A stretch of DNA of 64,000 bases, from assembly GCF_000027125.1 (NCBI RefSeq), contig NC_017626.1. One strand, given 5' to 3'. A program made the position numbers. Position 1 is the stretch's first letter; every line of letters starts with the position of its first letter. This DNA comes from Escherichia coli 042. Lineage in GTDB: Bacteria; Pseudomonadota; Gammaproteobacteria; Enterobacterales; Enterobacteriaceae. Positions 1 to 6,000 of this stretch are shown here, in pieces.

Positions 1-3000
1 AATGACAAAAGAATTGATGTTCATCAGAATAGTTAAAACACTTCAGATAAACAATTATCGTTAAGTAAATACAGTTCATGATGGATAAGATTAAAATCAA
101 TTACTGTTTCAGTGAAGACTGATAACAGATGAATATCATCAGTAGAATGGTAGAGGATAACTTATCTGAGTATCGTATGAATTACAGTAGTTATGCCTAA
201 TGAAGAAGGAAGTGGATATTATGATAATGGTGACAATGAAGATTAGACAAAGAAGAGTGTGAGTAAAGACAGAGTGAATATAATTATAGTAATAAACCTA
301 AATTAAAATTATCCATGTTTGATGTAAAATAATAATATACTGACAACCATGAAGATAAGAAAAAGAGAGTGCAGGTATCAGGAAGATCTCAGGATATGAA
401 GATTCCCACAACACAGATTTAAAATCAGTCGAATATAATAAATTTAAAAACCTTAATTAAAATGTAATCTCATCCATGGTTAACATGCTCCTGAAAAGAA
501 AATTTACAAATACCGTATGCTACCAACTAATTACAACAATGATATATGTACATTCAATAAGAATACAGATAAAATATTAATACCAACTTCCAGTATCAAG
601 ATCGTATCGCGAACTTCAGATGCGCTATGAGGCAGTTCAATTTTTAACTTTCGTTTTCCTCTTCCTCCCTGGCTTCATATGCATAAGCGACTTGAAAGAC
701 CCGATGATAGTTACAATTTCAGGTTGTGGCATGACGATCAATTTGTAACTGAAACAATGAACGGTAACGCTGCCATATAAACATCAAAATGCGAGCATTA
801 CAGCGACATTGAACCGATTAGATGTATCACTCATAATCAGAACAAGATGATGTATCCTGAGATATAAGAAAATCATCAAGAGAACCTCCGGCTTTTATTG
901 CTTCTGCAATAACATTAGGCCGACGACCTTGTCCACTCCAGTACATTGTTTGACCGTTATACTCATACCTGTATTTATTAGACTCTCCTGAATCGTTTTT
1001 CCTGCCCGTCTGTAATTTTTTGCCAAATTCACGTTCGTCGATCATGGTAATGATATAGCGACGCATTTCACCCATTCTGAGCTCAATGGCGTCCATCCCA
1101 ATGAGCTCACCGGTCTTTACCGGACGGTAGTGCTTTGGCCGGCGGGGTTTGGCGGTTCGCTTTTTGACAAGCAGAGCCTTACCCCGCGAGCTCAGACGTA
1201 CTGGTATCATCCGCATTTTATCGTGTGCGGTGGCGATCATTCTGCCGATGGTGGAAACACTCGGGCAGGTCAGATGGCGCTGTGCGCACCAGGGCTTCAG
1301 GCGAACAAAAATCTGCTCTTTACCGAGGTTTGGCAGCTCTGTCCTGAGGCGTCGAATCTCTTTCAGCACATCGGGATGCCAGTGCTTTTTTCGTCGCACC
1401 AGAGGTGCCTTACTGTGCGGGATTAGCCCCTCAGGTCCTCCCTTGTTCAGTAACTGACGCCACCAGTAAAGCGTGCGGCAGGACACGCCAAAGGCTTCAG
1501 AAGCCGCAGAAATACCGTGTTTATCCCAGAAGTGCAGAGCCTTCATTCTCATTGTTGCTATATCAGCTGTCACGAACGGTGCAATAGTGATCAGCCATCA
1601 CTGAAAGCCTCAACGCATAATCGGCCGTTTAGGATAGCCAACCATCAGATGCTGCATTTGCATAGTGCAATCTCCCCTTACTTATCCGGAGGCAATTGCA
1701 ATATCTCTGTGAACTTACACATAGGTGTAATCAATAAGGGCGTACGGAGATTGCCCGTTATTGCTGCAGGATCGGCAGACTGGTTTCCGTCCTTGCGCAT
1801 ATAACTGTACAACTACAGAGAAAAGCATCAATGCACGCTTTATGTTGCGTCAGGGCAGCGAACGACTCCTTTTGTTGACGACACATATCACCTTCTGTAC
1901 TGCTAATTATGGCATTCAGCGTCTCCCCGAGTTTTAAGCTCCTGCTCTTACGAACCAGCGACAAGCAATAAATAACTATGGCAATGAATCTAATAACAGC
2001 ATAAATATGAGACTCATCGATACTCATCGTGATTAGTATAATCGGGGCATAATTGGGGCAGAATTATATTCACTGTCTGATTTATTATTGGGTTAAATAT
2101 AATTAAAGTGTTCTCAAAAGTCTGGCTGGATTACCGGCATACACGCCTTTTACCAGTACGGGCTTTGTAACCACACTACCAGCACCAATCACTGCTCCAC
2201 TGCAAATTTCTGTTGTTAAAATGGTCGCTCCGCTACCCACTGTTACAGTGTTACCTAATACGATGCGTATCCAGCTTTCTGCAGAGGCATCGGGACCACC
2301 ACACTTAAAAAGATCATTAGCAAAAGTTACGCCATGACCGATGAAACAGCCATCACCTAAAATGACGTTCTCACAGATGAAACTGTGGGACTGAATTCGG
2401 CTCCGGTTGCCAATGATACATCCCTTCTGTATTTCCACAAAGGGACCGATAAAAACATCATCCCCCAGTTCACATTCATAGAGGTTTACTGGCATGACGA
2501 CTTTCACATTTTCACCAAATTTCACATCACGAATGCGGCTGTCAATAACGTTCATATCCGTTGTATCCTCCCTCAGGATGATTCTTATCAGAACATTTCA
2601 CCTGTCAGAATATTCCCGGTAATGTGATACAAGAGCCAGTCTCACCGGGTACCACGTGTTATTGCCCGTATCCTTTTACCCGTTACGAGTGTACAACCGG
2701 TTTTATATTTTGCAATCCAGGCCTGTTACACCAGAGCATCCTCTCACTGCCCCCTCACTGGTCAATCCGGGATTCAAATTCATCCTCCAGCACTAAACCC
2801 CATACCAGTCCTGAACCTTCCCTCGCCAGCAGCCAGACTCCTACTGTTCACCACAATCCTCTTCCGTGAATGGCCGTAAGTGCGCAGCACCAAAATAATG
2901 AGGTAGCCTGAGTTTAACGGACACTCCTTCCTGAAATAGAATGGCATCAGAAGGAGCTAATAATGAGCAGAAAAACCCAACGTTACTCTAAAGAGTTCAA

Positions 3001-6000
3001 AGCCGAAGCTGTCAGAACGGTTCTTGAAAATCAACTTTCGATCAGTGAAGGCGCTTCCCGATTATCTCTTCCTGAAGGCACTTTAGGACAATGGGTTACC
3101 GCCGCCAGAAAAGGGCTCGGTACTCCTGGTTCCCGCATGGTGGCTGAACTGGAATCTGAAATTCTGCAACTGCGTAAGGCGTTAAATGAAGCTCGCCTTG
3201 AGCGAGATATATTAAAAAAAGCAACTGTAGATTCAATCTGTCAATGCAACACCCCTTTCAATTATCTCTTTCGGTGTTTTGAACTTCAGTGTCTTTCTCG
3301 GTCTGTTGTTTAGCTGAGCAGCAACCAGATCTAGTTCATGTTGAGTATATTGGGCAAGACATGTCTTTTTAGGAAAGTACTGCCGAATTAGCCCATTTGT
3401 ATTCTCATTTGTTCCCCGCTGCCAAGGACTCTGAGGATCGCAGAAGTAAACTTTAACGCCGGTGCTGACAGTAAATTCTAGATGTCTGGCCAGTTCCATT
3501 CCTCTGTCCCATGTCAGTGATTTTCTGAGTTCTGACGGTAAACTCAGGAATTTGTCGGTAAGAGCCTGATTTACTGAGACAGAATCTTTGCCCCTGAGTC
3601 TAAGGATGATCGTATAACGTGATTTTCGGTCTACAAGTGTGGCTATATGAGAGTTTTTTGTACCTGAGACTAAATCGCCCTCCCAATGCCCCAGAGAGCG
3701 TCTGTTATCGATATTTCGGGAACGTTCGTGAATTGGTGTTCCGTTCACTATGTTAATCGTACCTCTTTCGCCTTTGCGGGTATGACGCCTGCCATGGCGA
3801 AGGCTATGCGACCGTCGCAGATGCTGTATATTCAGGTGGTGTTGCGCTTCACGGCTACGAAAGTACAGCGTTTTATAAATTGTCTCAGGTGATATTCGCA
3901 GCGTTTTTTGACGTGGTTTTGTTCGCCTTAACCATCCTGATATTTGCTCTGGAGACCATTTCATCTCCAGCTTTTCCAGAACAAGCTTTCGCAATGGTAA
4001 ATTTTGATCCAGTAAGCACGGTTTTGGCCTTTTCGCCATTCTGTTGGCTCGGTTATTAGCATCAACAGCTTTGTAATAGCGTCTGCCCCGATTACGCTGA
4101 ACTTCACGTGAGATCGTCGAAGGACTGCGATTCAGCGCAGTAGCTATCGCACGAATGCTCATTTTGGCTGACAAACCAGCTCGTATCTCCTCGCGCTCAG
4201 ACAGTGTCAGGTGAGCTACAGCCCGCTTACGCTCATGGGGTTTTATGCCGCCAGTATCCCTTAACATAGTGAAGATCGTTCCGGGTTTTGAACCCAGGAT
4301 ATTCGCTATTTCACTGAAGCCTGTTCCGTTCTTCCATAGTTCAAAAACAGAGGCTTTTTCCTCTGCTGTAAATGTTCGTCTCATTCAAAAAACCTCCACA
4401 ACCCCATGTTTTCACATAACTGTTGCGTTGACCAATTGAATCTACAACAGCGTATTTTGCACAGGAGTCGCTGAAAAATTCGCGTTAATCGAACAATGGC
4501 GACAACAATTTCCCATTGAAGCGATGTGTCAGGTATTTGGTGTATCCAGGAGCGGTTATTACAACTGGGTACAGCATGAACCCTCAGACAGAAAACAAAG
4601 TGATGAGCGGCTAAAACTGGAGATTAAGGTGGCACATATCCGCACTCGCGAAACATATGGAACCCGGCGGCTCCAGACGGAGCTGGCAGAGAATGGCATC
4701 ATCGTTGGTCGTGACCGACTGGCACGTCTTCGTAAGGAGCTAAGGCTACGCTGTAAGCAGAAACGCAAGTTCAGAGCGACTACGAACTCGAACCACAATC
4801 TGCCAGTTGCGCCAAATCTGCTGAACCAGACGTTCGCTCCTACAGCACCAAATCAGGTCTGGGTGGCGGACCTGACGTATGTTGCCACACAGGAGGGATG
4901 GTTGTACCTCGCTGGCATCAAAGATGTTTATACGTGCGAAATTGTCGGCTACGCCATGGGAGAGCGCATGACAAAAGAGCTGACAGGTAAAGCCCTGTTT
5001 ATGGCGCTCAGGAGCCAGCGCCCACCTGCCGGGCTAATCCACCACTCTGATCGAGGTTCACAGTACTGCGCATACGATTACCGGGTCATACAGGAGCAGT
5101 TTGGTCTGAAAACATCAATGTCGCGTAAAGGTAACTGTTACGACAACGCTCCGATGGAAAGCTTCTGGGGAACGCTGAAAAATGAGAGCCTGAGCCACTA
5201 TCGTTTTAATAACCGGGATGAAGCCATCTCAGTAATACGGGAATACATTGAGATTTTCTACAATCGTCAGCGTCGTCACTCTCGTCTGGGGAATATCTCC
5301 CCGGCAGCCTTCAGGGAAAAATATCATCAGATGGCTGCTTAAAAAAAGAACAAATGGTAGTGTCCGCTATTGCCAGTACACCTCATAAATCGGTACTTCC
5401 GATGACAGACAGTGAAAGCGTAAGGAGAAATATGAACATGAGAATGGAAGCAGATACATGACTTCAGGACGACTTTTTCAGAAAACGAGCTAAGGGCGTT
5501 GGCTGACGCCCTTACTGTGGCATAAGCTCAGGCACCGGATGCCGTTTTACAGGGTTCACCTGCCATCCAGTAGACGCCCCGGCCCACGACTGCAACCATA
5601 ATTACGTTGCCCGGAACCGTTATGCAGCTTCGTTTCATATTTCACGAGATAACTGGCTCTGTTCCGGGCTTTCTGCAGCGCTTCCACATCACCACGCTTG
5701 ATCCAGAGAACAGCGGCTTCACCCGGCTTTTTGTCTGAAGCCTTCCTGGTATCAGAACATCCACCCGACAAAGGCGTGTCATCGGAAGAAGGGCGAGCAT
5801 CAGACGATGCTGGTTTACGGGAAGGCGTCCACCTGGAAAAATGGACCTGGCCATCGCCTTGCCAGGGCTCAAGATGCAGGGCGCTGCACCATGCCTCTAG
5901 GATCATCGTCGCCAGCGAAGATGGTTCGCTGAAATCCCCGAGCGAGCACCAGGTATCTTTGTTGAGCAGTAATATCACGTGATAATGTTTCCTGCCATAC

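What the first reader, a model, noticed from the sequence alone, without database searches (positions are those of the whole stretch)
2899..5385. Nested insertion: IS30 landed 3 bp downstream of the frameshift heptamer of an IS600-like element
Both elements have intact ends and target duplications (TAA for the IS3-family element, AC for IS30). The IS30 copy is exactly 1221 bp. Its position right after the A AAA AAA G slippery site separates orfA from orfB, which should abolish the OrfAB fusion transposase of the host IS. Such IS-in-IS pile-ups often mark deletion scars where the integrase end of an island was lost.
Basis: partly seen in the sequence, partly recalled or inferred. Interest (0 to 1): 0.3.

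Follow-up and report, generated by a model that had tools for sequence, protein, structure and literature searches.

The report
IS30 nested in IS600 frameshift site
A complete IS30 jumping gene sits inside a complete IS600 jumping gene just after IS600's ribosome-slippage site; this is a common, already annotated arrangement in E. coli, it arises because that short stretch is a preferred IS30 landing site, and it does not mark a deletion.

Summary
A 1,264-bp IS600 (2899-5385, TAA duplication) is split by a 1,221-bp IS30 (3226-4446, AC duplication). The IS30 target dinucleotide lies 3 nt after the A AAA AAA heptamer. Removing IS30 and one AC restores a 100-aa OrfA and a 385-aa OrfAB.

The "deletion scar / lost integrase" reading is not supported. 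Other E. coli carry the uninterrupted acyltransferase|YagK-like spacer with a single TAA. The nearest complete genome has an intact integrase at tRNA-Phe, 39 kb to the left.

The position is not accidental. A target matrix built only from IS30 junctions outside IS3-family DNA ranks this site first of 62,751 positions in the window. It also recovers the published lambda hot spot. IS30 sits at the homologous dinucleotide in IS911/ISEc52 and other IS3-family elements, in both orientations. Of 119 distinct IS30-group junction flanks sampled, 54 abut an IS3-family OrfA end or OrfB start. This holds for IS30 relatives only 68% identical.

The same IS600::IS30 composite occurs elsewhere with its own 3-bp duplications, so it is probably still mobilisable in trans.

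The structure itself is ordinary and already annotated. The generality of the targeting is modestly interesting, and I could not check whether it has been published.

The parts
2896..2898 (.). Left copy of the 3-bp IS600 target duplication (TAA)
   Evidence: Read directly. The empty site in strain ERP001 has a single TAA.
2899..3225 (+). IS600 left part (nt 1-327): the left inverted repeat (about 2899-2925) and orfA up to the Ala codon after the heptamer
   Evidence: I2. It matches 325 of 327 bases of the IS600 fragment annotated in K-12.
2963..3313 (+). Altered orfA' (116 aa): 87 native residues, then read-through into IS30 (native OrfA is 100 aa)
3214..3220 (+). A AAA AAA slippery heptamer of IS600, in the orfA frame
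   Evidence: A simulated -1 slip on the restored element gives a 385-aa OrfAB that hits NF033516 at 413 bits.
3224..3225 (.). Left copy of the 2-bp IS30 target duplication (AC)
   Evidence: Intact IS600 copies have a single AC.
3226..4446 (-). Complete IS30, 1,221 bp. The right inverted repeat is at 3226-3251 and the left inverted repeat is at 4421-4446.
   Evidence: I1; 99.75% identity to K-12 IS30A over the full length.
3233..4384 (-). IS30 transposase gene, intact, 383 aa, with two substitutions relative to K-12 InsI (L181Q, V261L)
   Evidence: HTH_38 + rve; NF033563, 276 bits against a cut-off of 80.
4447..4448 (.). Right copy of the IS30 target duplication (AC)
4449..5385 (+). IS600 right part (nt 328-1264): the orfB frame (ATG-started ORF 4524-5342) and the right inverted repeat (about 5359-5385)
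5386..5388 (.). Right copy of the IS600 target duplication (TAA)
2103..2555 (-). Left neighbour: hexapeptide-repeat acyltransferase gene, not disrupted
   Evidence: It is adjacent to the YagK-like gene in empty-site genomes.
5556..6287 (-). Right neighbour: YagK/YfjJ (inovirus Gp2-like) gene, not disrupted

Best explanation
An IS600 (IS3 family, 1,264 bp) inserted cleanly, with a TAA duplication, into the spacer between an acyltransferase gene and a YagK/YfjJ-like gene. This spacer lies in a genomic island attached to tRNA-Phe in E. coli.

A complete IS30 lies inside it. Its target dinucleotide AC is 3 nt after the A AAA AAA frameshift heptamer. IS30 is there because the local sequence TTAAAAAAAGCA-AC-AGCGTATTTTG is a near-optimal, partly palindromic IS30 hot-spot target. 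The same dinucleotide in IS600, and the homologous one in IS911/ISEc52 and other IS3-family elements, has been hit repeatedly and in both orientations.

Shown:
- the anatomy, both duplications and the empty site;
- recurrence of the junction;
- the target-matrix rank of the site.

Inferred:
- This IS600 copy can no longer make OrfAB. It makes only a 116-aa OrfA variant.
- It keeps both ends, so it can be moved in trans by OrfAB from an intact IS600.
- IS30 keeps an intact transposase gene and is probably autonomous.

Whether IS30 entered IS600 at this locus, or the 2.5-kb composite arrived as a unit, is not resolved. I lean towards arrival as a unit.
For: Anatomy and duplications. Empty site with a single TAA and colinear flanks. 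Intact IS600 with a single AC in 1,613 genomes.

Same junction elsewhere:
- the yedS/hchA locus;
- the K-12 KpLE2 IS600 fragment that ends at the same base;
- an O157:H7 remnant;
- plasmids.

Homologous junctions:
- K-12 IS911A::IS30A (...AAAAAAGGCT-AC|) and ATCC 25922 ISEc52::IS30;
- a third host element on plasmid pGF130-A, with a GC duplication.

Target matrix trained on 49 junction flanks outside IS3-family DNA:
- the IS600 site ranks 1 of 62,751 positions in the window (z = 4.1);
- the IS911A site ranks 1 of 4,752;
- lambda position 33290 ranks 5 of 48,476 and is the best site in the published LHS fragment. It coincides with the 33244-33290 boundary given in PMC9333248.

Census of IS30-type ends found by a 25-nt end pattern with no condition on the flanks:
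- 119 unique flanks, of which 54 lie exactly at an IS3-family OrfA end or OrfB start and 10 more lie in IS3-family DNA;
- in the earlier 62-flank subset, 20 of 34 unique flanks of IS30 relatives diverged from E. coli IS30 are also IS3-family DNA; such relatives reach 68% identity over the whole element.

Unit mobility: composites carry their own 3-bp duplications, TAA (window), GAA (pCP55-141k), and TAT, GTA and TCC (viral contigs). All 5 genomes with IS600 at this locus also carry IS30, and none has IS600 alone.
Against: - I could not read the primary paper that defines the IS30 consensus (Olasz 1998). Agreement with the published consensus is therefore tested only indirectly, through the lambda LHS position.
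- Unique flanks are not phylogenetically independent events. SNP variants of one ancestral insertion inflate the counts.
- Firmly independent events number about six: three host elements below 40% OrfA identity, each in both orientations, all carrying IS30 at least 99.6% identical.
- Loss of OrfAB, trans-mobilisation and IS30 activity are all inferred, not measured.
- IS30 and IS600 produced no new insertions in K-12 mutation-accumulation lines (PMC5009759).
- No significant frameshift-stimulating RNA structure was found downstream of the heptamer (z = -0.66).
Confidence: 0.85

Rival explanations
1. One reading: the IS-in-IS pile-up marks a deletion scar where the integrase end of a CP4-like island was lost.
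For: - IS-rich junctions in islands often accompany rearrangements (general knowledge).
- A genuine rearrangement scar lies 1.3 kb to the left: an HTH-transposase fragment fused to an H-NS C-terminal domain at 827-1573.
- At the second locus (yedS/hchA) the composite has no duplication (AGA versus TAT).
Against: - Both elements here have perfect duplications.
- The empty site, with one TAA and colinear flanks on both sides, exists in other strains.
- The scar at 827-1573 is also present in the empty-site strain, so it is unrelated to the IS600/IS30.
- The nearest complete genome has an intact integrase beside tRNA-Phe at the island's other end.
Confidence: 0.04
2. Sequential events in place: IS600 inserted at this spacer first, and IS30 later hit its hot spot at this locus. 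The composite did not arrive as a unit.
For: - The hot spot is strong enough for independent hits, because both orientations exist in IS600, IS911 and the pGF130-A-type element.
- The TAA duplication is equally expected under this model.
Against: - No genome has IS600 alone at this locus (0 against 5 with IS30).
- Composites with the same internal orientation carry different 3-bp duplications at other sites. The window's orientation has TAA and GAA. The opposite orientation has TAT, GTA and TCC, and all seven complete opposite-orientation composites in the sampled viral contigs share it.
- The sequential model needs two rare events on one short branch.
Confidence: 0.35
3. The position next to the heptamer is chance. 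IS30 has no particular affinity for this site, and the shared junctions are all inherited from one event.
For: - Many of the roughly 1,600 E. coli genomes with the junction surely share it by descent or through composite copies.
- The 5 SNPs between the two E. coli loci are spread over both elements.
Against: - IS30 copies at least 99.6% identical sit at the homologous dinucleotide of host elements whose OrfA proteins are only about 30-35% identical. They occur in both orientations and with different duplications, AC and GC.
- IS30 relatives 68% identical do the same in the IS3-family elements of Shewanella and Marinomonas.
- A matrix trained without any IS3-family site ranks this position first in the window.
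Confidence: 0.03

Closest known systems
E. coli K-12 CP4-6 prophage: IS911A interrupted by IS30A (insN / insI1 / insO)
   Same: - A complete 1,221-bp IS30 lies between orfA and orfB of an IS3-family element.
- The homologous dinucleotide is used: A AAA AAG GCT AC| in IS911A against A AAA AAA GCA AC| here.
- The duplication is AC in both.
- PMC9333248 states that IS911 is interrupted by IS30A.
   Different: - The host element is IS911, not IS600.
- IS30 is in the opposite orientation relative to orfA.
- IS911A is also truncated on the right in K-12.
E. coli K-12 KpLE2: IS911B - IS30D - IS600 fragment (insO / insI3 / insM)
   Same: The annotated 327-bp IS600 fragment ends at exactly the same base (..AAAAAAAGCAAC|IS30) as the left part here, and 325 of 327 bases are identical.
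   Different: - In K-12, IS30 has its left inverted repeat against IS600. Its other end abuts the IS911B hot-spot half.
- 120 bp of IS911B and the whole right part of IS600 are missing, giving a hybrid produced by rearrangement.
- In the window both halves of IS600 are present.
IS30 hot-spot targeting (lambda LHS; Olasz and co-workers)
   Same: - The target is nearly palindromic and not an inverted repeat. Insertion is at a fixed position with a 2-bp duplication (PMC9333248).
- The matrix derived here finds the LHS site at 33290.
   Different: - The target here lies inside another mobile element's frameshift window.
- I could not read the primary paper. I therefore cannot say whether the link to IS3-family elements is already stated there.
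IS600::IS30 composite at yedS/hchA and on plasmids in other E. coli and Shigella
   Same: The same 2,487-bp structure in the same orientation, with 5-7 differences. It occurs in about 150 complete genomes and 16 plasmids.
   Different: - The genomic sites differ.
- There is no duplication at yedS/hchA, and GAA on pCP55-141k.
- Some copies are further interrupted by IS2, IS903B or ISSen4.

Membership tests
IS30 (IS30 family) | About 1,221 bp, near-identical to the E. coli K-12 IS30 copies | tested here: met
   1,221 bp, with 3 differences from IS30A and 4 from IS30D over the full length.
IS30 (IS30 family) | Terminal inverted repeats of about 26 bp beginning TGTAGATTCAAT | tested here: met
   (I1). 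Both ends are identical to K-12 IS30A.
IS30 (IS30 family) | 2-bp target duplication | tested here: met
   AC on both sides. Intact IS600 copies have a single AC.
IS30 (IS30 family) | A single transposase with an N-terminal HTH and a DDE (rve) core | tested here: met
   383-aa ORF. Pfam HTH_38 (82 bits) and rve (53 bits). NCBIfam NF033563 at 276 bits against a cut-off of 80.
IS30 (IS30 family) | Insertion into a nearly palindromic hot-spot sequence | tested here: met
   The site ranks 1 of 62,751 with a matrix trained on junctions outside IS3-family DNA, and 7 of 12 positions of the two half-sites are symmetric. The published consensus itself could not be read.
IS600 (IS3 family) | 1,264 bp, with imperfect terminal inverted repeats TG...CA | tested here: met
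   Exactly 1,264 bp after removing IS30 and one AC. Inverted repeats (I2). Full-length single-piece matches at 99.8% to copies that NCBI's PGAP annotation names IS600.
IS600 (IS3 family) | 3-bp target duplication | tested here: met
   TAA on both sides, with a single TAA in the empty site.
IS600 (IS3 family) | orfA and orfB joined by a -1 programmed frameshift at an A-rich heptamer, giving OrfAB with HTH and DDE domains | tested here: met
   On the restored sequence OrfA is 100 aa and the simulated OrfAB is 385 aa, with HTH_Tnp_1, HTH_21 and rve. NF033516 scores 413 bits against a cut-off of 160. Actual frameshifting cannot be tested here.
IS600 (IS3 family) | Identity to the ISfinder IS600 reference sequence | not testable with these tools
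   ISfinder is not available. Proxies used: the K-12 RefSeq feature 'insertion sequence:IS600' matches 325 of 327 bases, and PGAP names the element 'IS3-like element IS600 family'.
IS-associated deletion scar / integrase-less island remnant | Loss of sequence next to the IS: no duplication, and flanks not contiguous in relatives | tested here: not met
   Perfect duplications. The empty site is contiguous in other strains, with colinearity across the junction.
IS-associated deletion scar / integrase-less island remnant | The island lacks its integrase | tested here: not met
   NZ_AP022298.1 (5 differences in 17 kb from the window) has an intact tyrosine recombinase next to tRNA-Phe, 39 kb to the left and outside the window. 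This could not be checked in the window's own genome.

The most novel reading that the evidence does not exclude
IS30 and its relatives, down to 68% nucleotide identity and including elements in marine Gammaproteobacteria, preferentially home to the conserved frameshift window of IS3-family elements. This is the ...I-L-K-K-A... codons (TTAAAAAAGGC) plus the first codons of the orfB frame.

IS3-family elements would then act as their main natural landing pads. The resulting IS3::IS30 composites would persist as non-autonomous units moved by IS3-family transposase in trans.

About half of all distinct IS30-group junctions sampled here are of this kind. I found no open-access statement of this. 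It may or may not be in the 1998 target-specificity paper, which I could not read.
Probability: 0.4. Interest if true: 0.5.

Novelty: already known. Interest (0 to 1): 0.3.

Why it matters
For this window the finding matters little. It is a neutral, intergenic, nested IS. It disables one IS600 copy and removes nothing, so it should not be used as a marker of island decay.

More generally, the data suggest a rule useful for annotation and for IS biology. A split IS3-family transposase whose orfA fragment ends ...AAAAAA(A/G)GCNNN next to TGTAGATTCAAT is the signature of IS30 hot-spot insertion. IS30 copies parked in different IS3-family elements then serve as substrates for hybrid junctions and deletions, as in K-12 KpLE2 and strain ECO11.

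If the targeting is as general as the sample suggests, it would be an example of one IS family using another as a safe, multi-copy, horizontally spreading target.

Tried and rejected
- **Frameshift-stimulating RNA structure downstream of the heptamer.** The fold of the restored region is no better than shuffles (z = -0.66). I make no claim that IS30 disrupts a defined stimulator.
- **Published IS30 consensus.** Two look-ups of the primary papers failed, and full-text searches for the consensus found nothing usable. I built the target matrix from data instead.
- **An IS600-only intermediate at this locus.** None was found among 5,426 genomes, so the order of events stays open.
- **SNP lineage analysis of composites against free copies.** The 5 differences between the two E. 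coli loci are spread over both elements (2 in IS600, 3 in IS30). They do not discriminate between unit and sequential models.
- **Rfam scan.** Nothing lies in or near the element.
- **First classification with IS600 proteins alone by tblastn.** It under-called IS3-family flanks (24 of 62). It was replaced by iterated HMMs.
- **Counting genomes per junction class from 60-mer BLAST.** This is only approximate, because IS911-type junctions also pass the 80% coverage line. I give rough figures only.
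Full report
**1. The observation**

Reading the sequence confirms every coordinate in the finding.
- An IS3-family element runs from 2899 (TGAGGTAGCC...) to 5385 (...ACACCTCA). It is flanked by TAA at 2896-2898 and 5386-5388.
- Inside it, a 1,221-bp element runs from 3226 (TGTAGATTCAATCTG...) to 4446 (...CAATTGAATCTACA). It is flanked by AC at 3224-3225 and 4447-4448.
- The repeat finder recovers both pairs of terminal inverted repeats (I1 and I2).
- The inner element carries an intact 383-aa ORF on the minus strand (3233-4384).
- The run of seven A at 3214-3220 lies in the orfA frame as A AAA AAA. 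It is followed by GCA and then the AC that was duplicated. "3 bp downstream of the heptamer" is therefore correct for the target dinucleotide, and the IS30 end is 5 nt downstream.

**2. Identity of the two elements**

IS30:
- It differs at 3 of 1,221 positions from K-12 IS30A and at 4 from IS30D.
- Its protein has HTH_38 and rve domains and scores 276 bits on NCBIfam NF033563, against a cut-off of 80.
- The protein differs from K-12 InsI by L181Q and V261L.

IS600:
- Removing IS30 and one AC leaves exactly 1,264 bp.
- This restored element encodes a 100-aa OrfA. With a simulated -1 slip on the heptamer it encodes a 385-aa OrfAB carrying HTH_Tnp_1, HTH_21 and rve domains, at 413 bits on NF033516.
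- The restored element matches uninterrupted copies that PGAP names IS600 at 99.8% in a single piece, in 1,613 of 5,426 complete E. coli genomes. This also proves that the AC is a true duplication.
- The 327-bp IS600 fragment annotated in K-12 matches the left part at 325 of 327 bases.

**3. Surroundings, and the "deletion scar" idea**

The window is nearly identical to E. coli BEC1-S17-ESBL-09 (NZ_AP022298.1), with 5 differences in 17 kb.
- In that genome the element lies in a roughly 55-kb island between tRNA-Phe/dicD and cadC. The island carries microcin H47 genes and a CP4-type module.
- An intact tyrosine integrase sits beside tRNA-Phe, 39 kb to the left of the IS and outside the window.

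A query made by joining the two flanks with one TAA finds single-piece, full-length matches in 4 genomes at 99.6-99.8% and in about 500 genomes at about 97%. All are annotated acyltransferase | inovirus Gp2 family protein.
- In strain ERP001 the sequence reads ...CACCAAAATAA|ATCGGTACTTCC... with one TAA.
- Colinearity with the window (IS removed) runs for 3.7 kb across the junction.

IS600 is therefore a simple insertion in an intergenic spacer. The one real rearrangement nearby is an ORF at 827-1573 that fuses a transposase-type HTH region to an H-NS C-terminal domain. It is also present in the empty-site strain, so it is unrelated.

**4. The same junction elsewhere**

- The complete 2,487-bp composite occurs in 155 genomes. 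Five have it at this locus. Most of the rest have it between the yedS porin pseudogene and hchA, with 5 SNPs and no duplication.
- It is also on 16 plasmids, including pig ETEC and Shigella dysenteriae plasmids. There it is sometimes interrupted again by IS2 or IS903B.
- On pCP55-141k it is flanked by its own GAA duplication.
- In viral/prophage contigs the composite occurs at seven or more sites with IS30 in the opposite orientation. Three of these have their own duplications: TAT, GTA and TCC.
- O157:H7 strains keep the IS600 left part plus only 47 nt of IS30.
- K-12 itself has the junction. IS30D is bordered on one side by the first 327 bp of IS600, ending at the same base. On the other side it is bordered by IS911B cut at the homologous position. 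120 bp of IS911B is missing.
- IS30A in the K-12 CP4-6 prophage interrupts IS911A at ...A AAA AAG GCT AC|, the exact homologue of the IS600 site. The duplication is again AC, and the orientation is the opposite one.
- ATCC 25922 has IS30 at that site of an ISEc52-type element.
- Plasmid pGF130-A has it in a third IS3-family element, with a GC duplication.

These host elements share only about 30-35% OrfA identity, yet their IS30 copies are at least 99.6% identical. They must therefore be independent insertions.

**5. Why there: IS30 target preference**

IS30 is documented to choose either its own inverted repeats or "hot spot" sequences that are nearly palindromic. One example is LHS in lambda 33244-33498. 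[quoted passage not shown]

I collected IS30-type ends with a 25-nt end pattern that places no condition on the flanks. Sources were species-representative genomes, viral contigs and metagenomes, plus the E. coli loci.
- This gave 119 unique 30-nt outer flanks.
- Iterated HMMs seeded from IS600 OrfA and OrfB place 33 flanks exactly at the end of an IS3-family OrfA and 21 exactly at the start of the orfB frame. Ten more lie in IS3-family DNA.
- The OrfA-side flanks form about 20 sequence clusters.
- The IS30-type elements involved range from 100% down to 68% identity to E. coli IS30. Examples include Shewanella, Marinomonas, Colwellia, Yersinia, Erwinia and Kluyvera.
- The diverged elements sit at the same codon position of their local IS3-family hosts. 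Two examples are ...ATACTAAAGGAGGCC-GC-CGTGTACTTTGC... in Shewanella and ...ATCTTAAAGGAAGCA-GC-CATGTTCTTTGC... in Marinomonas.
- In the first 62-flank subset, 20 of the 34 unique flanks of diverged elements, and 14 of the 26 of E. coli-type IS30, are IS3-family DNA.

A half-site frequency matrix built only from the 49 unique flanks that are not IS3-family DNA has the consensus T-A-A-A-A-A-A-(C/G)-G-C-n-n-n. This is the same as the IS3-family windows. Scoring both half-sites around every dinucleotide gives these results:
- the IS600 site ranks 1 of 62,751 positions in the window with IS30 removed (z = 4.1);
- the IS911A site ranks 1 of 4,752;
- lambda position 33290 ranks 5 of 48,476 and is the best site within the LHS fragment, matching the published boundary.

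The position next to the heptamer is thus explained by IS30's sequence preference. The slippery A-run plus the GCN alanine codon forms one half-site, and GCG...TTTT downstream forms a weaker second half-site.

**6. Consequences (inferred)**

- orfA now reads into IS30 and ends after 116 aa. The last 13 native residues are replaced.
- The orfB frame is 1,223 bp away, so OrfAB cannot be produced from this copy.
- A search for a frameshift-stimulating RNA structure that IS30 might disrupt was not significant, so I claim nothing about it.
- Both IS600 ends are intact. Composites elsewhere have their own 3-bp duplications with a constant internal orientation. No IS600-only occupant of this site exists, against five with IS30. 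I therefore favour, at roughly 60:35, that the 2.5-kb composite was moved here as a unit by OrfAB from an intact IS600, over two successive events in place. This is not settled.
- IS30 copies parked in different IS3-family elements also generate hybrids, as in K-12 KpLE2 and in strain ECO11, where IS30 lies between an IS600 left part and an inverted left part of the pGF130-A-type element.

**7. Comparison with what is known, and novelty**

The structure is a standard nested IS.
- It is annotated by PGAP in complete genomes.
- Its junction is in the K-12 reference annotation.
- The K-12 analogue, IS911 interrupted by IS30A, is mentioned in the literature.

It is therefore already known and ordinary, and the deletion-scar interpretation is wrong.

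What I could not find stated in searchable papers is that the IS3-family frameshift window is a general and evolutionarily conserved IS30 target, accounting for about half of distinct junctions. The key 1998 paper could not be read, so prior art remains uncertain.

**8. Verdict**

- Observation: confirmed.
- Interpretation: partly supported. Nesting and loss of OrfAB hold, and the deletion scar does not.
- Interest of the object itself: low. The targeting pattern raises it modestly.

Noticed in passing
window 827-1573 (- strand): A single 248-aa ORF fuses a transposase-type HTH N-terminus (HTH_28/HTH_32) to an H-NS C-terminal DNA-binding domain. PGAP annotates it as two pseudogene pieces. It looks like a true rearrangement scar. 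It is also present in the strain that lacks the IS600/IS30, so it is unrelated to them.
   Followed up: partly
L004 (K-12 NC_000913.3 4507125-4509801): The KpLE2 structure is IS911B[1-334] - IS30D - IS600[327 to 1] - IS911B, resuming 120 bp after the hot spot. A single IS30 bridges two different hot-spot halves, implying recombination or IS30-mediated deletion between an IS911::IS30 and an IS600::IS30.
   Followed up: partly
L228 (E. coli ECO11, NZ_CP090331.1 about 2502.2-2503.9 kb): A second hybrid of the same kind. IS30 is flanked by the IS600 left part on one side and by the inverted left part of the pGF130-A-type IS3-family element on the other.
   Followed up: no
L007 (O157:H7 WS4202, locus 2768-3077): The IS600 left part ends ..AAAAAAAGCAGC and is followed by only 47 nt of the IS30 right end, then unrelated DNA next to the urease genes. 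About one in eight evenly spaced rows of the junction search are of this type, so the remnant is widespread in O157-like genomes.
   Followed up: partly
L080-L084 (IMGVR_UViG_2869924733_000007, 43.6 kb): One viral/prophage contig holds at least five IS600::IS30 composites at different sites, all in the same internal orientation. Two have their own 3-bp duplications (GTA, TCC). This suggests active spread of the composite in that genome. The organism was not identified.
   Followed up: partly
other genomes and plasmids (H6-H10; H187-H197): The IS600::IS30 composite is itself interrupted by a further IS (IS903B, ISSen4, IS2 or another IS3-family element), giving triple nesting.
   Followed up: no
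window about 17942-18056: By correspondence with NZ_AP022298.1, a 115-bp frameshifted integrase fragment lies at the island's right boundary just before cadC. The intact integrase is at the opposite, tRNA-Phe end, outside the window.
   Followed up: no
window 34610-34648 (-) and 54357-54578 (+): Rfam matches above the gathering score: a JUMPstart element (58.5 bits) and the C0719 sRNA (297 bits). Both are in the core-genome part of the window.
   Followed up: no
window 27889, 32993, 31606 (target dinucleotide positions): These are the next-best matches to the IS30 target matrix in the window (scores 15.4, 14.9 and 13.4, against 16.0 for the occupied IS600 site). All are unoccupied.
   Followed up: no
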